Source: a virus | Lineage: Duplodnaviria; Heunggongvirae; Uroviricota; Caudoviricetes | Reading direction: 5' to 3' (one strand) | DNA length: 12,562 nt | IMG/VR virus record: IMGVR_UViG_2703718813_000005 | Part shown: positions 41 to 10,443 of the stretch, in pieces | How positions within the stretch are numbered: position 1 is the first letter of the stretch | Layout of the letters: each line of letters begins with the position of its first letter | Translations under genes and position numbers: made by a program | Notes under the pieces: generated by a model | Databases searched by the model: none | What the model saw: the letters and a program-made list of their open reading frames with translations, nothing else | What the model was told of the DNA's origin: nothing

Positions 41-140
41 GTGTCATGAGCAGCATTACGCCCAAATTATGGTGGGGCGTGCAGGGCCAACTTCGGTTGG
101 GCCGGGTTCTTTGGTGACCGGTATTTCCACCCCTGTACGT

Positions 141-179
141 CTCACCACCAATAAGGTCGTGGAAAGCCTTGGTGGTGAG
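141..179. repeat. Perfect 11-bp inverted repeat in the leader of the rha-like gene
   Basis: CTCACCACCAA (141-151) and TTGGTGGTGAG (169-179) are exact reverse complements, separated by 17 nt and followed by TTATTAAAAAT. Lies about 30 nt upstream of the AAGAGG ribosome-binding site. Confidence 0.45.
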
Positions 180-209
180 TTATTAAAAATCACCAAAGAG
201 GCTGCCATC

Positions 210-755
210 ATGGCTACGATCCCAACCCTCACTCAACCTGAAATTGCCATCGTTGATGGTCAGGCTGTTACTTCATCCCTGGCTGTTGCCAACTTCTTCT
301 CCAAACGTCATGACGATGTACTGAAAAAGATCCGCACGCTTGAATGTTCCGCATCATTCACTGCCCGCAATTTTTCGGTGAGTGATTACACCGATTGCAC
401 AGGCCGCAAACTACCTTGCTATCAAATAACCCGCGACGGCTTTGCGTTTCTTGCTATGGGTTTCACGGGTAAACGTGCTGCCCGGTTCAAAGAGGCATAC
501 ATCAATGCCTTTAACCAGATGGAGAAACAGCTTTCAAAGCCCGCTGTACCGAGCGACGTTGCACATAACGCCAGCGTTCTCTGTTCCTACATTTCATCAA
601 TTCATCAGGTCTGGCTGCAGCAGCTTTATCCTATGTTGGCAAAAGCCGAATCTCCGCTGGCTGTTAGCTTATATGACTATATTAATGATGCTTCGGCGCT
701 GGCCTGCCTCATAAATTTGTCGCTGAACCCTTCAGAGGCAAGGGGGCGCAAATGA
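210..755 (+). CDS. Rha-family phage regulatory protein
   Basis: Translation MATIPTLTQPEIAIVDGQAVTSSLAVANFFSKRHDDVLKKIRTLE... matches the Rha/pRha family as I remember it. ATG at 210 has an AAGAGG site 9 nt upstream. The track ORF begins at a TTG at 39, inside the terminator, which I consider less likely. Stop overlaps the next start (ATGA). Confidence 0.7.
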   Translation: MATIPTLTQPEIAIVDGQAVTSSLAVANFFSKRHDDVLKKIRTLECSASFTARNFSVSDYTDCTGRKLPCYQITRDGFAFLAMGFTGKRAARFKEAYINAFNQMEKQLSKPAVPSDVAHNASVLCSYISSIHQVWLQQLYPMLAKAESPLAVSLYDYINDASALACLINLSLNPSEARGRK

Positions 756-976
756 TCCGGAATATTTTCAAACGTTTTACCAATCAGACTTTCCGTTGTC
801 CTCGTCCGGGTCAGTGGTACACCACGCCTGCAGGGCATGTTCTACGTGTTAGCCTGGTTGACCGTGAATGTCAGAAGGTGATTTGTGAACCGCTGGGCCG
901 TAATTACCGCGTCAGTATGCCGCTTATAGCCTTTCGCTCCGGAAAAAACATGAAGCATCTCGGAGGTGCAGCATGA
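752..976 (+). CDS. Small hypothetical phage protein (74 aa)
   Basis: ATG 752 overlaps the rha stop, with AGGGGG 5 nt upstream; its stop overlaps the next start (ATGA at 973). Translational coupling in an operon. No family recognised. Confidence 0.5.
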   Translation: MIRNIFKRFTNQTFRCPRPGQWYTTPAGHVLRVSLVDRECQKVICEPLGRNYRVSMPLIAFRSGKNMKHLGGAA

Positions 977-1791
977 GTATGGAGCTGATGGTTAAAGCGA
1001 TGAAAATTCGAGTGGGTAATCCATTGCGAAAACTGGTTCTGATCAAGCTGGCTGATAATGCCAGCGATCAGGGTGAGTGCTGGCCCAGCTACCAGCATAT
1101 TGCTGACCAGTGCGAGATTAGCAAACGTTCTGTGATGAATCATATTGCGGCCCTTTGTGAGTCCGGGCTGGTAAAAAAAGTCACCCGGAAAGGTGAAAAA
1201 GGTAACTCAAGTAATATCTATCTCCTTCATCTTGATGGTGCAGGAGATTCACTAGGGAGTAGTGCAAATAATTCACTATCTGGTGCAGCAAATTCACCAG
1301 GTAGTGCAGGAGTTGCACCAGGGGGTAGTGCAGGAGATTCACCCAGAACCAGTCACTCTTTTGAACCAGTCAAAGAACCAGTCAATGAACCAATAGCTGT
1401 TGGTGCATCTGCTGATGAGTCTGTGCGAGTTCGTTCAAACCGACCGGAATACTCTCCGGAGTTTGAGCAGGCATGGCTGGCATATCCCAAACGTACTGGT
1501 GGCAATTCAAAATCTGCAGCCTTCAAAGCCTGGAAAGCCCGTTTGAATGAGGGGGTAAACCCCGAAACCATGCTGGAAGGTGTGAAACGCTACGCGGGCT
1601 GGGTATCTGCGATGGGTAACAGCGGCACACAATTTGTGAAACAGGCTGTCACGTTCTTTGGTCCGGATCGTCATTTCGAAGAATCCTGGGAAGTTCCTGC
1701 GGTATCTGTAGCCGGACGCGAGGACCCGTACTTCAAAGCCAGTTACGACAACGTGGACTACAGCCAGATCCCGGCAGGATTCAGGGGGTGA
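973..1791 (+). CDS. HTH-domain protein, phage replication-initiator / replisome-organiser-like
   Basis: N-terminus LRKLVLIKLADNASDQGECWPSYQHIADQCEISKRSVMNHIAALCESGLVKK resembles the helix-turn-helix domain of phage replication initiators. A central Gly/Ser/Ala/Pro-rich linker is encoded by DNA repeats. GGAGG lies upstream of ATG 973. The replication role is an inference. Confidence 0.55.
   Translation: MSMELMVKAMKIRVGNPLRKLVLIKLADNASDQGECWPSYQHIADQCEISKRSVMNHIAALCESGLVKKVTRKGEKGNSSNIYLLHLDGAGDSLGSSANNSLSGAANSPGSAGVAPGGSAGDSPRTSHSFEPVKEPVNEPIAVGASADESVRVRSNRPEYSPEFEQAWLAYPKRTGGNSKSAAFKAWKARLNEGVNPETMLEGVKRYAGWVSAMGNSGTQFVKQAVTFFGPDRHFEESWEVPAVSVAGREDPYFKASYDNVDYSQIPAGFRG
1235..1395 (+). repeat. 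Direct-repeat tract inside the 973-1791 gene
   Basis: Exact 15-mer GTGCAGGAGATTCAC at 1238-1252 and 1328-1342, with degenerate copies at about 1262, 1284 and 1304 (roughly 20-24 bp period). GAACCAGTCA occurs at 1346-1355, 1364-1373 and 1375-1384. Encodes a low-complexity linker. Confidence 0.6.
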
Positions 1792-1793
1792 TC

Positions 1794-2282
1794 ATGAGTC
1801 TTTTGAATGACGTTCAGAAATTCATTGAAGCCCATCCGGGGTGTACTTCCGGAGACATTGCGGATGCTTTTGCAGGTTACTCACGGCAGCGCGTTCTGCA
1901 GTCAGCAAGCAAGTTACGTCAGAGCGGGCGTGTGGCTCACCGTTGTGAAGGAGATACACGCAGACATTTCCCGCGCCTGACTGAGAGAGCGCAGGAACCG
2001 GAACCACAACCAGTTCGAGAAACCAGACCTGTGCGCAATTTCTATGTCGGCACTAACGATCCACGGGTGATTTTGTGCCTGACCCGCCAGGCGGAAGAAC
2101 TGGAGTCCAGGGGCTTATACCGTCGTGCTGCAACGGTGTGGATGGCGGCATTCCGTGAAAGCCACTCCCAGCAAGAGCGAAACAATTTTCTGGCGCGTCG
2201 TGAGCGGTGCTTACGGAAAAGCAGCAAGCGCGCTGCATCGGGTGAAGAGTGGTATCTGTCAGGGAATTACGTGGGGGCTTAA
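1794..2282 (+). CDS. PerC-family-like transcriptional regulator
   Basis: C-terminal AEELESRGLYRRAATVWMAAF...ERNNFLARRERC fits the PerC/Pch signature as I remember it (LE-KGL-RRAA-W ... RRERC). N-terminal part looks like a winged helix. ATG 1794 has AGGGGG upstream; a GTG at 1788 is the alternative start. Confidence 0.5.
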   Translation: MSLLNDVQKFIEAHPGCTSGDIADAFAGYSRQRVLQSASKLRQSGRVAHRCEGDTRRHFPRLTERAQEPEPQPVRETRPVRNFYVGTNDPRVILCLTRQAEELESRGLYRRAATVWMAAFRESHSQQERNNFLARRERCLRKSSKRAASGEEWYLSGNYVGA

Positions 2283-2935
2283 TGAGTAATAAATATTGCC
2301 AGGCGCTGGTGGAACTGCGGAACAAACCAGCCCATGAACTGAAGGAAGTGGGCGATCAGTGGCGCACGCCGGACAACATTTTCTGGGGAATTAACACCCT
2401 GTTTGGCCCGTTTGTTCTGGATCTGTTCACTGACGGTGATAACGCCAAATGTGCCGCGTATTACACGGCGGAAGACAACGCGCTGGCGCATGACTGGTCA
2501 GAACGTCTTGCGGAGCTTAAAGGTGCTGCCTTTGGTAATCCCCCATACAGCCGCGCCAGTCAGCATGAGGGGCAATACATCACCGGCATGCGTTACATCA
2601 TGAAACATGCCAGTGCCATGCGTGATAAAGGCGGGCGCTATGTTTTCCTGATCAAAGCTGCCACCAGCGAAGTGTGGTGGCCGGAAGATGCAGATCATAT
2701 TGCTTTTATTCGCGGGCGTATTGGTTTTGAACTGCCTGCCTGGTTTATCCCGAAAGATGAGAAGCAGGTGCCGACAGGCGCTTTCTTCGCTGGTGCTATT
2801 GCTGTTTTCGACAAGACCTGGAAGGGACCGGCAATCAGCTACATCGGGCGCGATGAACTTGAGGCATGTGGTGAGGCGTTTCTGGCGCAGGTTCGCCAGC
2901 AGGCGGAAAAACTGGTCAGGGAGATGGCGGCATGA
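2282..2935 (+). CDS. Phage Dam-type DNA N6-adenine methyltransferase
   Basis: WRTPDNIF ... GNPPYS (NPPY catalytic motif) ... GRIGF is the layout of the small phage Dam family. ATG 2282 overlaps the upstream stop (TAATG). Confidence 0.8.
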   Translation: MSNKYCQALVELRNKPAHELKEVGDQWRTPDNIFWGINTLFGPFVLDLFTDGDNAKCAAYYTAEDNALAHDWSERLAELKGAAFGNPPYSRASQHEGQYITGMRYIMKHASAMRDKGGRYVFLIKAATSEVWWPEDADHIAFIRGRIGFELPAWFIPKDEKQVPTGAFFAGAIAVFDKTWKGPAISYIGRDELEACGEAFLAQVRQQAEKLVREMAA

Positions 2936-3258
2936 CGACGTTAACTCAATGCCAGCAGCAGGTGCTGGATATGCTGATTTCTTATCAGAAAGAACGTGGC
3001 TTCCCGCCAACCAATCAGGAGGTGGCAACCATGCTGGGATACCGTTCAGTGAATGCAGCGGTGGAGCATCTTCGCGCACTGGAGAAAAAAGGCGTCATCA
3101 CGATAAAGCGTGGTGTGGCCCGGGGGATCACGCTTCATACCGTGGTGAAGGACGACGACAGCGAGGCGGTCGGGATTATCCGCTCACTGCTTGCCGGTGA
3201 GGAAAACGCCAGGCTGCGTGCAGCCCATTGGTTACATGAGAGAGGCCTGAAAGTATGA
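2932..3258 (+). CDS. LexA N-terminal DNA-binding-domain homolog, no S24 peptidase domain
   Basis: MTTLTQCQQQVLDMLISYQKERGFPPTNQEVATMLGYRSVNAAVEHLRALEKKGVITIKRGVARGITL aligns closely with my recollection of the E. coli LexA N-terminal domain. Only 108 aa with an unrelated C-terminal tail. AGGGAG site upstream; ATGA overlaps on both sides. Confidence 0.75.
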   Translation: MTTLTQCQQQVLDMLISYQKERGFPPTNQEVATMLGYRSVNAAVEHLRALEKKGVITIKRGVARGITLHTVVKDDDSEAVGIIRSLLAGEENARLRAAHWLHERGLKV

Positions 3259-5625: not shown

Positions 5626-5642
5626 TTTTGTGGAGAAAGTTG

Positions 5643-6005
5643 ATGCGTGATATGTATGAAGTATTGGACCGCTGGGGAGCATGGGCTGCAGCAGAAAATA
5701 GTGGTGTGGACTGGCAGCCGATAGCGGCTGGTTTCAAGGGACTTTTACCACACGGTAAAAAGTCACGTCTCCAGTGTGATGATGATGAAGGCATCATGAT
5801 AGACGGTTGTGTGGCTCGGTTGCGAAAGTATAAACCAGAGGAATATGAGCTGATCATAGCTCACTTTGTTATTGGTATCTCATTACGCACTATTGCCAAG
5901 AAGAGAAGATGTTCAGATGGCACAATTAGGAAGGAATTGCAGACTGCCATGGGGTTTATCAGCGGTGTAATAATAACTATAAACCCCATTATGGTAGTTA
6001 ATTAA
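5643..6005 (+). CDS. Late antiterminator Q (phage 82 / QuuD-like family)
   Basis: MRDMYEVLDRWGAWAAAENSGVDWQPIAAGFKGLL...SRLQCDDDEG...CSDGTIRKELQTA matches the short Q family (LERWGAWAA, IAAGFKG, CSDG). GGAG upstream of ATG 5643. Confidence 0.85.
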   Translation: MRDMYEVLDRWGAWAAAENSGVDWQPIAAGFKGLLPHGKKSRLQCDDDEGIMIDGCVARLRKYKPEEYELIIAHFVIGISLRTIAKKRRCSDGTIRKELQTAMGFISGVIITINPIMVVN

Positions 6006-6573
6006 TGTGAATCCTATCACCAAGATAGTATAGTCCAAAAAATGTTGAAACAAGCATTTGCCATGTAAGGAATAAAAAGATAATGATATAGCACCAGTTT
6101 GCTATATCATTATTCAGTATGTTTATTAGTGGTGTGATAAAAGCGTTGAAAATCACTATGCATATGCTGAGGGCAGTTAAAAATGAAAATAACATGCACA
6201 GAAATAATCTTCTGGTAAGTTTCTCTTGAGTGTCAACAATTCTACCATTTTCTTTTGTTCGTGTAATTTTAATAAAAGGAGTGCCATTAGTTCCTATCAG
6301 AGGGTAGTCAATTTGTTCTCTGTTGAAAGTGGCTATTGCTGCAAGAGCTGCTATATAAAAACCTGGCAGATTTGATACAAATCCAGATATAGACTTAATA
6401 AAGCCGCCATCTTTTAGTAGGTCTGATGTAGGTATTTTAAATAAATAAAAGTAAAAAAAAGAAATCACAGCAAGCCCGGCAGGTGCATAAAAATCGTATG
6501 CGCACTTACCACTAATTCCCTTAATGAAAAGGTAACCAAACGGTCTAAATAAATGTGAAAATATACTAATCAT
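5998..6573 (-). CDS. Small integral membrane protein (191 aa, about four predicted helices)
   Basis: Hydrophobic segments GLAVISFFYFYLF, PGFYIAALAAIATF, LFLCMLFSFLTALSICIVIFNAFI and WCYIIIFLFLTWQMLVSTFFGLYYL. GAGG sits 5 nt upstream of the ATG, and the start lies 7 nt after the upstream gene's stop. Very AT-rich. Its 3' end overlaps the Q stop by a few nt. Confidence 0.6.
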   Translation of the reverse strand: MISIFSHLFRPFGYLFIKGISGKCAYDFYAPAGLAVISFFYFYLFKIPTSDLLKDGGFIKSISGFVSNLPGFYIAALAAIATFNREQIDYPLIGTNGTPFIKITRTKENGRIVDTQEKLTRRLFLCMLFSFLTALSICIVIFNAFITPLINILNNDIANWCYIIIFLFLTWQMLVSTFFGLYYLGDRIHIN

Positions 6574-6580
6574 ATTAGCC

Positions 6581-7609
6581 TCACATGACCTCGATAATCT
6601 TATTCACAAACTCCATGTTAATACTATCATAAGAATCCTTTAAGCGCGAAGAAAAACCATTTATTACACTCTTTTTGATAAATGTTTTTTCCAGCCCATC
6701 CAGCCTTACATTTGAAGTTTGAAGGTCAACTTGTCTTGTGAATCCTGTCTCTGGCTCTTTGAATTTTATTTTTATTAAGTCATAACCTCCATTTTTATCT
6801 TCTTTAAAGAAGTTTGAGACAGATTTTATCCATCCAAGGACATTGTTGGGGCCATGGTTTGGTACTAAGCGTAAAGTACTTTCTTTAGGAATAATAGCCG
6901 CGTTAACATCTGGCGCATTAATAGTTCTGTATTCATTCTTTACCAAAACGACATCAGAAAGTCCTTCTTTATTTATTTTATTGAACAAATCTTCATCTAA
7001 CTTTCCAGATATATCAAAGACTGGCTTGTATAATACTTTTATTTTTTTCTTTGTTAAACTTGACACTTCATTTGTTAAAGTGTGACATGAAAAGATATCT
7101 TCATTATCTTTGGCTACGTTAAAGAGAACTTTATTCAGGAAACCATTTATTTTTGCTGTGGAAACTCCTGGTATTGGCATAAAACTCATGTCATACGTTC
7201 GCATATTTCCGTCTAGAGAAATAATCATATGAGAAGAAACTTCGTAACCTTCACCTTCCTCATGTTTTGGTGATATTTCGGTGCGAACATCTGTATTAAT
7301 GTTTTTTAATACAGTAGTGCTTCCATTTTTATCTACAGCATTAATTAAAAGACCAAGATGGCTGGGTTTTTTATCGGCTCTGTTTGATAAGAATATTACA
7401 TCTTGTAAAGTTAAAACTAAGTCTCCTTTTTCATAACTGTGCATCATTGCTTTACAACGTACTATTTTAGAAGCAAGTTCACGCATTGTTGGTACCGGGC
7501 AAACACAGTTCGATCTGATGCTATCATCAATTTTCTGTGTACGGTATTGTGTATCGATCGTAATAGTATGATGAGTTATTACTCTACTGAATGCGTCCAG
7601 TGTAGCCAT
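6581..7609 (-). CDS. Hypothetical soluble protein (342 aa), first gene of the AT-rich cassette
   Basis: Long uninterrupted ORF in an AT-rich segment, with Lys/Asn/Ile-rich composition typical of foreign low-GC DNA. No signal peptide or transmembrane segment visible. Weak ribosome-binding site. No family recognised. Confidence 0.6.
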   Translation of the reverse strand: MATLDAFSRVITHHTITIDTQYRTQKIDDSIRSNCVCPVPTMRELASKIVRCKAMMHSYEKGDLVLTLQDVIFLSNRADKKPSHLGLLINAVDKNGSTTVLKNINTDVRTEISPKHEEGEGYEVSSHMIISLDGNMRTYDMSFMPIPGVSTAKINGFLNKVLFNVAKDNEDIFSCHTLTNEVSSLTKKKIKVLYKPVFDISGKLDEDLFNKINKEGLSDVVLVKNEYRTINAPDVNAAIIPKESTLRLVPNHGPNNVLGWIKSVSNFFKEDKNGGYDLIKIKFKEPETGFTRQVDLQTSNVRLDGLEKTFIKKSVINGFSSRLKDSYDSINMEFVNKIIEVM

Positions 7610-7722
7610 TTCAAAATATCCGCTTCTTTGCTGTTTTTATATGGAGAAAGTTTACATAACCACTAACGCGTACGCAAAAACTATTGTATCGTGTTAAGAG
7701 TGGTTACTTCGCCACACAGCTT

Positions 7723-7747
7723 AAACCCGCCGCGAGCGGGTTTTTTT
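7723..7747 (+). terminator. Rho-independent terminator (tR'-like position)
   Basis: AAACCCGC (7723-7730), loop CGCGA, GCGGGTTT (7736-7743), then T-run to 7747. Confidence 0.7.
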
Positions 7748-7869
7748 ATGGCTGAAATCGGTCCAGTACAGTAAACGCGCTGGCGGCGGTGAATACCGGT
7801 CTTTCAGCTTGCTGGCTTTTTTGACAAGAGTTATTGGTGTGTCACGTTAACCGGAAAAGGGAAAAAGAC

Positions 7870-8067
7870 ATGCTGAAACAGCAGGATATGACCGAAACCG
7901 CCAGAGTGGTGTTTAATGAATTAAGTGCCACCGCACCGGCGACAGTCGGGGAGATTGCACAGAATACGTACCTTTCACGCGAACGCTGCCAGCTAATACT
8001 GACCCAGCTTGTTATGGCGGGTCTGGCAGACTATCAGTTCGGTTGTTACAGACGCCTTCAGTCCTGA
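7870..8067 (+). CDS. Small winged-helix protein (PapI/FaeA-like?), 65 aa
   Basis: TVGEIAQNTYLSRERCQLILTQLVMAGLA resembles small wHTH regulators. TTGACA at 7821-7826 is a possible -35. The stop lies inside a strong terminator. Confidence 0.45.
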   Translation: MLKQQDMTETARVVFNELSATAPATVGEIAQNTYLSRERCQLILTQLVMAGLADYQFGCYRRLQS

Positions 8068-8077
8068 AGGCTTTTTT
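8054..8077 (+). terminator. Rho-independent terminator
   Basis: GCCTTCA (8054-8060), loop GTCC, TGAAGGC (8065-8071), then TTTTTT (8072-8077). Confidence 0.7.
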
Positions 8078-9349: not shown

Positions 9350-10075
9350 ATGGATGTTGCCTGCTCTGTGGTCCTGATTCGCTATCCGATAGATATTTTT
9401 CTTGAAAAAGAAAAAGTTTCACTCGATGCCGGAAGTGTTATGCTTGTTGCCAGAAATATAAGAGGGCTTTTCTGTGCTTATGCCGACAGAGTGAAAATGG
9501 CAGATATAAGTAACAGCGTCGTCAATCAGTATCTGGAAAGGGAGTGTGAACTGACGGAGTATACACCGACAAAAATGCCTCTTTATTTGATGTCTGATAT
9601 TTACAATACGGAACTGGCGGAGGCTTTAATAACCCAGCATAGTGAATCCAGTGATACTTTGAAGGATTTCTCTGTTATAACCGCATTTTCATGTATCTCC
9701 TTATTTGCAACAGACAGGCGTCTGCCATTATTTTTGTCCGGTGCTGTAAATAATATCAGCTGTAAAGTAAGGGCTATAATTCAGACCGACATATCGGCAG
9801 GCTGGATGCTAGGTGTGATTGCATTACAATTGCATATGAGCGAAAGCTTGTTGAAGCGAAAACTTAAGGATGAAGGTTATAGCTTTAGTCGGTTGTTGCT
9901 GGAGGAGCGAATGCGTGTTGCTGTTAATCTTGTATGTTTCCAGCGAGAGTGTGGACAAGCGATAGCGGAAAAATGTGGTTACTCAAGTAAGTCCTATTTC
10001 ATTTCTGTATTTCACCAGTATTATGGTGCACCACCTGAGAGCTATGCATATTTGCAGAAAGCAGACGTTATCTGA
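9350..10075 (+). CDS. AraC-family transcriptional regulator (AppY-like)
   Basis: C-terminal AraC-type double HTH (GWMLGVIALQLHMSESLLKRKLKDEGYSFSRLLLEERM ... IAEKCGYSSKSYFISVFHQYYGAPP). N-terminus MDVACSVV resembles prophage AppY. AT-rich gene. Confidence 0.75.
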   Translation: MDVACSVVLIRYPIDIFLEKEKVSLDAGSVMLVARNIRGLFCAYADRVKMADISNSVVNQYLERECELTEYTPTKMPLYLMSDIYNTELAEALITQHSESSDTLKDFSVITAFSCISLFATDRRLPLFLSGAVNNISCKVRAIIQTDISAGWMLGVIALQLHMSESLLKRKLKDEGYSFSRLLLEERMRVAVNLVCFQRECGQAIAEKCGYSSKSYFISVFHQYYGAPPESYAYLQKADVI

Positions 10076-10164
10076 TGTTTTTTCATCAGGCATATATTGA
10101 TTGACTGTATTAGATATAGTCTGAATGTGTTCAGCATAAAGAGTTATAATCATTTGGTGTTTGC

Positions 10165-10443
10165 GTGAATATTGATGAGAAAATCAGATGTAGCCAACTG
10201 TTACAGCGTATTGAAGCCGTCAATGTGGAACGAACAAAGGTCTTCAGTCGTCTGACAGTTTTATTTTGTACCCCTGATCGACGTTCAGGTCAGGAGATGG
10301 TTCTTCTGGATGTAGATGCACTTCGGAACGTCTGTGAGGAGTTCACCGCGGCTAATTCGGAGTTACTGAGTCTTGTTCAGGAGTACAACAGAATTGCAGG
10401 TAGTAACGGTTTTGATGAAATCAAAATTATATCCCGTGGATAA
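10165..10443 (+). CDS. Hypothetical small protein (92 aa)
   Basis: ORF with a GTG start downstream of a TATAAT-like hexamer (10145-10150). AT-rich. No family recognised, and coding status is uncertain. Confidence 0.3.
   Translation: MNIDEKIRCSQLLQRIEAVNVERTKVFSRLTVLFCTPDRRSGQEMVLLDVDALRNVCEEFTAANSELLSLVQEYNRIAGSNGFDEIKIISRG

What the first reader, a model, noticed from the sequence alone, without database searches (positions are those of the whole stretch)
5998..7609. AT-rich two-gene cassette inserted directly after Q: soluble 342-aa protein plus small four-helix membrane protein
Two minus-strand genes are translationally coupled (GAGG before the second start, 7-nt gap) and converge on the Q gene. 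The segment is visibly far more AT-rich than the flanking phage genes, with an abrupt composition change at the Q stop codon, as expected for horizontally acquired cargo. The Q-to-late-gene junction is a classic moron site in lambdoid prophages (stx, nmpC and cspB/F sit there in other phages). A cytoplasmic protein paired with a small multi-pass membrane protein recalls RexA/RexB-type abortive-infection modules, but I recognise no family for either protein. Opposite-strand placement implies expression in the lysogen, independent of late transcription.
Basis: partly seen in the sequence, partly recalled or inferred. Interest (0 to 1): 0.85.

Follow-up and report, generated by a model that had tools for sequence, protein, structure and literature searches.

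The report
RexAB-like phage-defence cassette after Q
A lambdoid prophage carries, between its Q gene and its late-gene control region, a foreign two-gene module (a DNA-clamp-like soluble protein plus a four-helix membrane protein) from a family whose relatives in other bacteria kill or arrest phage-infected cells, so it is a new member of a known kind of anti-phage system.

Summary
Two coupled minus-strand genes, A (6581-7609, 342 aa) and B (5998-6573, 191 aa), lie in a 33% GC block between 52-53% GC phage DNA. They converge on Q.

An empty site and five other cargos at the same junction in other E. coli prophages show that this is an exchangeable insertion.

Both proteins match PADLOC's untested candidate system PDC-M53 (A 8e-32, B 2e-54). 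They match nothing in Pfam or NCBIfam.

The A-then-B pair is kept in 81 of 87 loci across Proteobacteria. It sits in a P4-like satellite, P2-like, lambdoid and PM2-like prophages, and a Vibrio defence island.

A Pseudomonas member reproduces the published size, mutated residues and CI-adjacent position of the tested P. putida RexABpp system. Literature also links PDC-M53 to the tested Vibrio cholerae system Sucellos. Both links are indirect.

Verdict: a RexAB-like abortive-infection module, and a new member of a known kind. The E. coli allele itself is untested.

The more novel side finding is the junction. It holds six cargos and may supply the -35 half of a shared promoter.

The parts
6581..7609 (-). 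Gene A, 342 aa: soluble PDC-M53A-family protein with an RdgC/RexA-like fold; proposed DNA-binding sensor
5998..6573 (-). Gene B, 191 aa: four-helix inner-membrane protein of the PDC-M53B family, with a basic beta-hairpin loop between helices 2 and 3; proposed pore or channel effector
   Evidence: ORF. PADLOC PDC-M53B 1.7e-54. AlphaFold pLDDT 87.7 with helices 23-44, 58-82, 121-153, 156-189 and strands 100-118. Invariant motifs LPGFxIAALAA, RRxxL..F..L..S and GLYYLG.
6574..6582 (-). A-B junction: 7-nt spacer, with the Shine-Dalgarno GAGG (6582-6579) overlapping the stop codon of A, 5 nt before the ATG of B
   Evidence: Sequence read. In the family the A-B distance is -56 to +48 nt, often a 1- or 4-nt overlap.
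7649..7677 (-). Putative promoter for the cassette: -35-like TTGCGT (7677-7672) in the conserved phage backbone, a 17-nt spacer, and -10-like TAAACT (7654-7649) at the edge of the cargo
   Evidence: Script on six cargo variants: each has TAnnnT 17 nt (18 nt in L012) after the conserved TTGCGT. Alignment A5. The consensus scanner did not call it, because the -35 matches only 3 of 6 positions. This is inference only.
5990..7662 (.). Exchangeable cargo segment (about 1.67 kb, 33% GC) bounded by the 3' end of Q and the conserved late-region element
   Evidence: Alignments with the empty site and five other cargos. The empty site is about 1633 nt shorter. The right boundary is sharp at 7660-7662. 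The left boundary is diffuse, within about 5965-5997.
5949..5989 (.). Hairpin (11-bp perfect stem, 19-nt loop) between the convergent ends of Q and B; other cargos carry their own hairpin at this position
   Evidence: Inverted repeat I12. Hairpins are visible at the same place in L012, L014 and L015 in alignment A4. Its function was not tested.
5628..6005 (+). Q antiterminator gene (PGAP start at 5643), whose 3' end overlaps the stop of B by 8 nt
7663..7750 (+). Conserved late-region element shared by all cargo variants and by the empty site. It ends in a strong intrinsic terminator (stem-loop 7723-7743 plus a T-run). It is presumably the late promoter/terminator module on which Q acts.
   Evidence: Alignment A5. 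Terminator scan. More than 1,100 E. coli genomes and Stx2 phages match from about 7634-7670 onward. The assignment as pR'/tR' is inferred from position.

Best explanation
The cassette is a RexAB-like two-gene anti-phage system of the family PADLOC calls PDC-M53. A lambdoid prophage carries it as exchangeable cargo between Q and the late control region.

Protein A is a cytoplasmic protein with the RdgC/RexA fold. It most likely dimerises and binds DNA, or a DNA-protein intermediate made early in infection by another phage. Protein B is a four-pass inner-membrane protein, with both termini and a basic beta-hairpin loop facing the cytoplasm. It most likely forms an oligomeric pore or channel.

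On infection, A is proposed to activate B. The membrane would be depolarised or made permeable, so the infected cell would stop growing or die before the invader completes its cycle.

**Shown here:** gene structure, foreign origin, HMM family membership, fold of A, topology of B, strict pair conservation, and location in mobile-element defence hotspots.

**Inferred:** anti-phage activity of this allele, DNA binding by A, A-to-B signalling, pore formation, and expression in the lysogen.
For: **Family.** A and B both match PDC-M53. This is one of 145 untested candidates found embedded in BREX, DISARM or type I RM loci.

**B.** A confident four-helix bundle. Eight Lys/Arg lie in the 83-122 loop and none in the 146-157 loop (sequence).

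**Pair conservation.** A lies directly upstream of B in 81 of 87 loci, from Enterobacterales to Alphaproteobacteria, Nitrospira and Victivallales.

**Contexts.**
- Right after the integrase of a P4-like satellite in Serratia.
- A P2-like prophage next to an Eco29kI RM system.
- The end of PM2-like Vibrio prophages.
- Between a Q-position gene of unknown function and the holin in SfII and Salmonella phage F1055.
- Near a dGTPase-like HD-domain gene and Hachiman in V. cholerae.

**Tested relatives.**
- P. putida RexABpp binds DNA, needs both genes, and damages the membrane through RexBpp. Pseudomonas locus L054 is PDC-M53 (A 1.5e-149, B 4.8e-71). It reproduces the 37.5 kDa His-tagged RexApp, five of seven mutated RexBpp residues at zero offset (W25, F35, L55, G153, Y181), and the CI-adjacent position.
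- V. cholerae Sucellos is described as RexAB-like by structure without a Pfam match. Both genes are required, and it causes early lysis of infected cells. DefenseFinder's Sucellos and PADLOC's PDC-M53 are each reported in about 98-100% of the same Salmonella Enteritidis genomes.
Against: - No experiment exists for this allele or for any Enterobacterales member that I could find.
- Sequence homology to lambda RexA and RexB is not detectable. PADLOC's RexA and RexB models hit lambda but not these proteins. hhalign gives E of about 0.2, no better than swapped controls.
- B finds no significant structural match among viral models.
- Identity with Sucellos and with RexABpp rests on indirect evidence, because neither sequence could be fetched.
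- No consensus sigma-70 promoter was called upstream of A.
- RexA also has a non-defence role in lambda's lysogeny switch.
Confidence: 0.78

Rival explanations
1. The pair mainly serves the prophage's own development, as lambda RexA does when it stabilises the lytic state of the CI/Cro switch. Any exclusion of other phages would then be a by-product.
For: RexA has this role independently of RexB. In the Pseudomonas relative L054 the pair lies directly downstream of a CI-like repressor.
Against: The same pair occurs where there is no CI/Cro switch to modulate:
- a P4-like satellite next to the integrase;
- a V. cholerae island near Hachiman.

The family was first flagged because members are embedded in BREX, DISARM or RM loci. 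In this window it lies at the opposite end of the early region from the immunity genes.
Confidence: 0.07
2. The pair is an addiction or toxin-antitoxin-like module, or a membrane-level superinfection-exclusion device that blocks DNA entry. It would not be an infection-triggered suicide system.
For: It has a small membrane protein with strongly conserved helices, tight coupling and carriage on mobile elements. In mycobacteriophage Butters the roles are reported reversed: the membrane partner sequesters a toxic soluble partner.
Against: A is a 342-aa RdgC/RexA-fold protein and is not antitoxin-like. In P. putida the membrane protein is the growth-suppressing effector, activated by the soluble partner. 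Sucellos causes lysis right after infection, which fits abortive infection.
Confidence: 0.08
3. The cassette is ordinary prophage cargo unrelated to phage conflict, for example a virulence or envelope function.
For: The Q-to-lysis interval also carries virulence morons such as stx in related phages (established knowledge). Neither protein has an annotated function.
Against: There is no similarity to any porin, adhesin, toxin or enzyme family. The distribution across environmental Proteobacteria, satellites and defence islands does not track pathogenicity.
Confidence: 0.04

Closest known systems
Bacteriophage lambda RexA/RexB exclusion system
   Same: - A soluble protein is followed immediately by a four-helix inner-membrane protein in one operon.
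- It is prophage-borne.
- Relatives of the window's pair sit next to a CI-like repressor in Pseudomonas.
   Different: - No detectable sequence similarity.
- The proteins are larger: 342 and 191 aa against 279 and 144 aa.
- B has a beta-hairpin loop between helices 2 and 3.
- Here the pair lies at the Q/late junction on the opposite strand, not in the immunity region.
Pseudomonas putida RexABpp (PP_5643/PP_5644; Rosendahl et al. 2026, PMC12894663)
   Same: Very probably the same HMM family. Pseudomonas locus L054 is PDC-M53 and reproduces the published mass, five of seven mutated residues and the CI-adjacent context.

Published properties: non-specific DNA binding by A, both genes required, and B as the membrane-damaging effector.
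   Different: It belongs to another sub-clade. PADLOC model PDLC04694 is the best match for the Pseudomonas A protein, against PDLC04696 for the window's A. The position in the prophage also differs.
Sucellos (SclA/SclB) from the Vibrio cholerae superintegron (Darracq et al. 2024, bioRxiv 10.1101/2024.07.02.601686)
   Same: - Described as a two-gene system that is RexAB-like by predicted structure yet has no Pfam match.
- Both genes are needed, and SclB is modelled as a membrane pore.
- It is found in prophages (often Salmonella), in a P4-like satellite and in a phage of an ammonia oxidiser.
- The PDC-M53 family has the same kinds of hosts and contexts.
- Both labels are reported in about 98-100% of the same S. 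Enteritidis genomes.
   Different: The identity was not verified. The Sucellos sequences and DefenseFinder models could not be reached. The V. cholerae PDC-M53 locus I retrieved is not in the integron.
PADLOC PDC-M53 (phage defence candidate; Payne et al. 2024)
   Same: Both proteins match its models over their full length, and the gene order and adjacency fit.
   Different: None found. In that source it is a bioinformatic candidate without a tested function.
RdgC recombination-associated DNA-binding protein
   Different: A does not match Pfam RdgC, and neither do 74 distant relatives. RdgC works alone in the cytoplasm and has no membrane partner.
Kiwa (KwaA/KwaB)
   Same: A small multi-pass membrane protein of about 190 aa is paired with a soluble protein of about 310-340 aa that acts on phage DNA (from my own knowledge of the system).

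Membership tests
PADLOC PDC-M53 | Soluble component matches a PDC-M53A model | tested here: met
   E 7.8e-32, residues 8-340 against profile positions 5-316 of 320.
PADLOC PDC-M53 | Membrane component matches the PDC-M53B model | tested here: met
   E 1.7e-54, residues 4-190 against profile positions 2-186 of 188.
PADLOC PDC-M53 | The two genes are adjacent on one strand, with A upstream of B | tested here: met
   7-nt gap. The same arrangement holds in 81 of 87 loci.
Lambda RexAB (strict sense) | Sequence or HMM similarity to RexA | tested here: not met
   No RexA hit at E up to 1 in PADLOC, although the RexA model hits lambda at 9e-110. hhalign E 0.2-0.26. No 8twq hit by sequence or profile.
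Lambda RexAB (strict sense) | Sequence or HMM similarity to RexB | tested here: not met
   No RexB hit. hhalign E 0.15-0.18, no better than swapped controls. Lambda RexB is not among the top 50 Foldseek matches.
Lambda RexAB (strict sense) | Soluble partner has the split RdgC-like fold of RexA | tested here: met
Lambda RexAB (strict sense) | Four-pass inner-membrane partner encoded immediately downstream | tested here: met
   AlphaFold four-helix bundle. Hydropathy of B and close homologues.
Lambda RexAB (strict sense) | Located beside cI and co-transcribed with it in the lysogen | tested here: not met
   In the window the pair lies after Q. A Pseudomonas relative does lie after a CI-like gene.
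Lambda RexAB (strict sense) | RexA binds DNA and RexB; activation depolarises the membrane; T4 rII and other phages are excluded | not testable with these tools
   Needs EMSA, two-hybrid, membrane-potential and plaque assays.
Sucellos (DefenseFinder SclA/SclB) | Match to the SclA and SclB models or to the V. cholerae N16961 cassette-68 proteins | not testable with these tools
The paper's supplement does not name them.
Sucellos (DefenseFinder SclA/SclB) | Two genes, RexAB-like by structure but without a Pfam RexA/RexB match; found in Salmonella prophages, a P4-like satellite and a phage of an ammonia oxidiser | tested here: inconclusive
   The descriptive features fit (against 72, 73, 77, 84). 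Sucellos and PDC-M53 are each reported in about 98-100% of the same S. Enteritidis genomes. This is suggestive but not proof.
P. putida RexABpp | PP_5643 and PP_5644 belong to the same HMM family as the window's proteins | tested here: inconclusive
   The test is indirect. Pseudomonas locus L054 is PDC-M53. It matches the published 37.5 kDa tagged mass, five of seven mutated residues at zero offset, and the CI-adjacent context. The actual PP_5643/5644 sequences were not compared.
Kiwa | KwaA and KwaB (DUF4868) models match, with the membrane gene first | tested here: not met
   No Kiwa model or DUF4868 hit. The order here is soluble gene, then membrane gene.
RdgC (Pfam PF04381) | Match to the RdgC family model | tested here: not met
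   No hit for A or for 74 distant relatives. There is fold resemblance only.

The most novel reading that the evidence does not exclude
The junction between Q and the conserved late-region element in this prophage lineage may be a dedicated docking site with its own half-promoter. It swaps at least six cargos. Each cargo brings its own -10 element at a fixed distance from a backbone -35, and each brings a hairpin facing Q.

Two of these cargos have the same layout of a soluble protein of about 310-340 aa followed by a multi-pass membrane protein of about 180 aa. They show no sequence similarity to PDC-M53, to RexAB or to any PADLOC or Pfam family:
- the 343 + 179 aa pair of E. coli 89-3156;
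- the 308 + 182 aa pair of E. coli 042, present in 219 of 5,426 genomes.

They would then be further, unrecognised Rex-like defence families. Soluble sensor plus four-helix membrane effector would be a much broader class than the five or so systems described.
Probability: 0.35. Interest if true: 0.55.

Novelty: new member of a known kind. Interest (0 to 1): 0.4.

Why it matters
- It gives a probable function to two genes that NCBI's pipeline still labels hypothetical, one of them with a truncated start.
- It suggests that three independently named entities are one widespread family that shares the fold of lambda RexA. These are the PADLOC candidate PDC-M53, the V. cholerae system Sucellos and P. 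putida RexABpp. If so, experimental results could be transferred between them.
- It marks the Q/late-promoter junction of SfII-like lambdoid prophages as a place to look for further two-gene membrane-effector systems. One of them is present in about 4% of complete E. coli genomes.
- The finding itself is not a new kind of system.

Tried and rejected
- **Family libraries.** Pfam, NCBIfam and PHROGs gave no function for A or B. Pfam on 75 distant A relatives gave only scattered chance hits.
- **Solved structures by sequence.** PDB sequence and profile searches found nothing.
- **Profile comparisons with lambda RexA/RexB.** These were run first against single sequences. They were then run with enlarged alignments (147 A, 115 B) against four-member Rex alignments built from phage records. 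None was significant, and none beat the swapped negative controls. The published HHpred link of PP_5643 to RexA could therefore not be reproduced here.
- **B against viral models.** No significant match. The best TM-score (0.40/0.45) was to a 165-aa protein of mycobacteriophage Sbash, a phage reported to carry a Rex-like pair. At E 1.2 this is only a hint.
- **AlphaFold database.** The fold library was unavailable.
- **Kiwa, toxin-antitoxin and RM models.** No PADLOC hits other than PDC-M53.
- **Sucellos sequences.** The term is absent from the held supplement. V. cholerae cluster members could not be looked up. The V. cholerae locus that could be fetched is a different island.
- **Insertion mechanism.** There are no direct repeats flanking the cargo, so no sign of site-specific insertion or transposition. 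There are no tRNA genes in the window.
- **Alternative cargos.** hhalign of the L011 and L014 cassettes against the PDC-M53 alignments found no similarity.
- **Promoter scan.** The consensus scan found no site upstream of A. The promoter proposed here rests on cross-cargo conservation alone.
Full report
**1. What is in the sequence**

The window is the early-right and late-left part of a lambdoid prophage. It is almost identical (99.7-99.9%) to one in E. coli strain SMBL. On the plus strand it encodes:
- a Rha/antirepressor-like protein and a replication protein;
- PerC, a Dam-type methylase and a LexA-like protein;
- RusA, KilA-N, DUF968 and Q (5628-6005);
- then a 65-aa ORF, a DNA methyltransferase and an HTH regulator.

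Between Q and the 65-aa ORF lie two minus-strand genes: A (6581-7609, 342 aa) and B (5998-6573, 191 aa).
- The stop of A and the start of B are 7 nt apart. GAGG lies 5 nt before the ATG.
- The stop codons of B and Q overlap, so the two genes share 8 nt.
- The cassette is 33.4% GC against 52-53% on both sides.

The stated observation is therefore correct. There are two refinements. The composition shift begins a few codons inside Q. The four-helix nature of B rests on the AlphaFold model and on homologues, because a hydropathy scan of this allele alone picks up only two helices.

**2. It is an exchangeable insertion**

In 5,426 complete E. coli genomes the cassette occurs 15 times. Searching with the flanks included found three kinds of relative:
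- prophages with the same DUF968-Q left flank and the same right flank but about 1,633 nt less DNA, which is an empty site (strain 2014C-4135);
- prophages with a 76%-identical version of the cassette (strain PF9285, the type also found in Shigella phage SfII);
- prophages with other two-gene minus-strand cargos of similar size.

Alignment of all of them puts the right boundary at 7660-7662. It is followed by an element of about 88 nt that is conserved in every variant and ends in a strong intrinsic terminator (7723-7743). The left boundary lies in the last codons of Q.

No flanking direct repeats were found. Exchange by recombination between conserved flanks is therefore more likely than site-specific insertion. 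This is an inference.

**3. What the proteins are**

Neither protein matches Pfam, NCBIfam or any solved structure by sequence, even with a 75-member profile. PHROGs has both as families of unknown function.

PADLOC gives clear full-length matches: A to PDC-M53A (7.8e-32) and B to PDC-M53B (1.7e-54). PDC systems are the 145 untested candidates that Payne et al. derived from genes embedded inside BREX, DISARM and type I RM loci.

The A family is small and fast-evolving. It has 34 clusters at 90% identity, and 308 representatives by profile. The B family is broader and better conserved, with 609 to 1,636 hits. B carries invariant motifs in or next to its helices: LPGFxIAALAA, RRxxL..F..L..S and GLYYLG.

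**4. Structures**

*Protein B.* The model has pLDDT 87.7 and pTM 0.83. It is a bundle of four long helices with a beta-hairpin (100-118) in the loop between helices 2 and 3. That loop holds eight Lys/Arg and the 146-157 loop holds none. By the positive-inside rule, both termini and the hairpin loop face the cytoplasm (sequence; inference). B has no significant structural match among viral models.

**5. The pair is a unit, and it lives where defence genes live**

I applied HMMs of A and B to all ORFs of 90 fetched loci. They found B in 87 loci. In 81 of these an A-family ORF lay directly upstream on the same strand, -56 to +48 nt away. The six exceptions are contig ends, fragments or three unexplained loci.

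Hosts span Gamma-, Beta- and Alphaproteobacteria, plus Nitrospira, Desulfovibrionaceae and Victivallales bins.

Contexts seen:
- immediately after the integrase of a P4-like satellite in Serratia marcescens;
- a P2-like prophage in Halomonas, beside Dam, UmuC and an Eco29kI RM system;
- the end of PM2-like (Vinavirales) Vibrio prophages, next to the integrase;
- between a Q-position gene of unknown function and the holin in SfII and in Salmonella phage F1055, where the pair is on the same strand as the late genes;
- a V. cholerae island near a dGTPase-like HD-domain gene and Hachiman;
- directly downstream of a CI-like repressor in a Pseudomonas prophage.

**6. Links to tested systems**

*(a) P. 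putida RexABpp.* Rosendahl et al. 2026 showed that PP_5643/PP_5644 form a RexAB-type defence system.
- RexApp binds DNA non-specifically.
- RexBpp is a four-helix membrane effector that damages the membrane.

I could not fetch those sequences. However, Pseudomonas locus L054 belongs to PDC-M53 (A 1.5e-149, B 4.8e-71). Its features match the published ones:
- its A protein weighs 36.7 kDa, or 37.5 kDa with a His6 tag, exactly the published mass;
- its 188-aa B protein has W25, F35, L55, G153 and Y181, which are five of the seven residues mutated in RexBpp, at zero offset;
- a CI-like repressor lies just upstream, as described for PP_5643.

I consider it very likely that RexABpp is a PDC-M53 member.

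*(b) V. cholerae Sucellos.* Darracq et al. 2024 describe it as follows.
- It is a two-gene integron cassette with structural similarity to RexAB but no Pfam match.
- Both genes are required.
- SclB is modelled as a pore.
- Infected cells lyse early.
- A phage pentapeptide-repeat protein counters it.

It is reported in Salmonella prophages, in a P4-like Enterobacter satellite and in a temperate phage of an ammonia oxidiser. PDC-M53 has the same kinds of hosts.

In one study of S. Enteritidis, DefenseFinder's Sucellos was reported in about 98% of the genomes. PADLOC's candidate set, which includes PDC-M53, was reported in 97.6-100% of the same genomes. This makes identity probable but unproven.

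**7. How it most likely works**

By fold, by architecture and by the behaviour of the tested relatives, I propose these steps:
1. A binds phage DNA or a replication or recombination intermediate.
2. A then engages the cytoplasmic face of B.
3. B opens or assembles into a pore.
4. The membrane potential collapses and the infection aborts.

The reported anti-Sucellos pentapeptide-repeat protein belongs to a class known to mimic DNA (my own knowledge). That would fit a DNA-sensing A protein if the systems are the same family.

None of these steps is shown for this allele.

**8. Expression**

The consensus scan calls no promoter upstream of A. However, on the minus strand the conserved backbone carries TTGCGT. 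Every one of the six cargos places a TAnnnT hexamer 17 nt further on (18 nt in one case). In the window the hexamer is TAAACT at 7654-7649, which leaves a leader of about 33 nt.

This suggests a promoter split between backbone and cargo. It would be active in the lysogen and opposed by read-through from Q during the prophage's own lytic growth. Both points are inference. The cargo edges are AT-rich and look weakly related to one another, so the six cases are not independent.

**9. Membership and novelty**

- The cassette is a member of PDC-M53: all three defining features are met.
- It is not a member of the lambda RexA or RexB sequence families. HMM and profile tests fail, with positive controls working.
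- It shares their fold, their gene order and the four-helix membrane partner, so it works like Rex without being Rex by sequence.
- It is not Kiwa and not an RdgC family member.

The family has been flagged by PADLOC, and relatives have very probably been validated in Pseudomonas and Vibrio. This is therefore a new member of a known kind.

What remains mildly novel:
- the unification of three names under one family;
- the Q-junction hotspot with its possible shared half-promoter;
- the two other cargos with the same architecture and no recognisable family, one of them present in 219 genomes.

Noticed in passing
Same junction in other E. coli prophages: L011:1207-2770 (strain 89-3156), L014:1198-2659 (strain 042), L013:1212-2212 (strain FCI55), L012:1211-2748 (strain MLI104K1), L015:1185-2799 (strain PF9285): Five other minus-strand, AT-rich (31-39% GC) two-gene cargos occupy the exact site of the window's cassette.
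- L015 and L012 are diverged PDC-M53 pairs.
- L011 (343 aa soluble + 179 aa four-TM) and L014 (308 aa + 182 aa with 3-4 TM) share the architecture but match no PADLOC or Pfam family and no PDC-M53 profile.
- L013 is an 87 aa + 246 aa pair, the larger protein having three C-terminal TM segments.

Counts among 5,426 complete genomes: L014 type 219, L013 type 21, L011 type 13-14, L015 type 9, L012 type 4.
   Followed up: partly
window 7649-7677 (minus strand) and the equivalent positions in L011-L015: A conserved backbone TTGCGT is followed after 17-18 nt by a TAnnnT hexamer in all six otherwise unrelated cargos. This looks like a promoter split between backbone and cargo.
   Followed up: partly
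window 6080-6113: A perfect 14-nt inverted repeat with a 6-nt loop (ATAATGATATAGCA / TGCTATATCATTAT) lies inside the coding region of B, near its 3' end. The terminator scan flags it on both strands. Its significance is unknown.
   Followed up: no
window 6581-7609 versus L002:8682-9587: PGAP annotates the A gene of the near-identical SMBL prophage with a start 41 codons too late (301 aa). The 342-aa form is conserved from residue 1 in 28 homologues.
   Followed up: yes
window 6880-6960 (A residues about 117-144): Across 75 distant A relatives only His127 is invariant. R9, L88, G121, S125, E144, G215 and D234 are nearly so. The motif EGxGYEVSSH straddles the end of the one disordered stretch of the model (96-121). 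This is a candidate functional site with no counterpart that I know of in RexA or RdgC.
   Followed up: no
window 9350-10443: A second low-GC block (38-43%) lies downstream of the DNA methyltransferase. It carries a 241-aa HTH regulator that looks AraC-like by eye, and a 92-aa ORF. It is probably another moron in the late operon. It was not scanned against any library.
   Followed up: no
L095:2909-4567 (Salmonella phage F1055): A PDC-M53 pair (357 + 190 aa) sits between a Q-position gene of unknown function and the holin, but on the same strand as the late genes. Orientation relative to late transcription is therefore not fixed in the family.
   Followed up: partly
L094:802-6002 (Vibrio cholerae GCA_024217625.1): Three consecutive genes without Pfam hits (819, 729 and 178 aa) lie between an integrase fragment and a resolvase. 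They are just upstream of the PDC-M53 pair and near a dGTPase-like HD-domain gene and Hachiman. This may be another uncharacterised defence operon.
   Followed up: no
L016 (contig JBJFHC010000248.1, labelled MAG Erysipelotrichaceae): A 2.2-kb contig in a Firmicutes bin encodes a B protein 100% identical to the window's and a full-length 342-aa A. It is most likely a mis-binned E. coli prophage fragment rather than a transfer event.
   Followed up: no
window 8054-8071: A second strong plus-strand intrinsic terminator follows the 65-aa ORF (7870-8067), just before the DNA methyltransferase gene. The late transcript therefore meets at least two terminators before the lysis genes.
   Followed up: no
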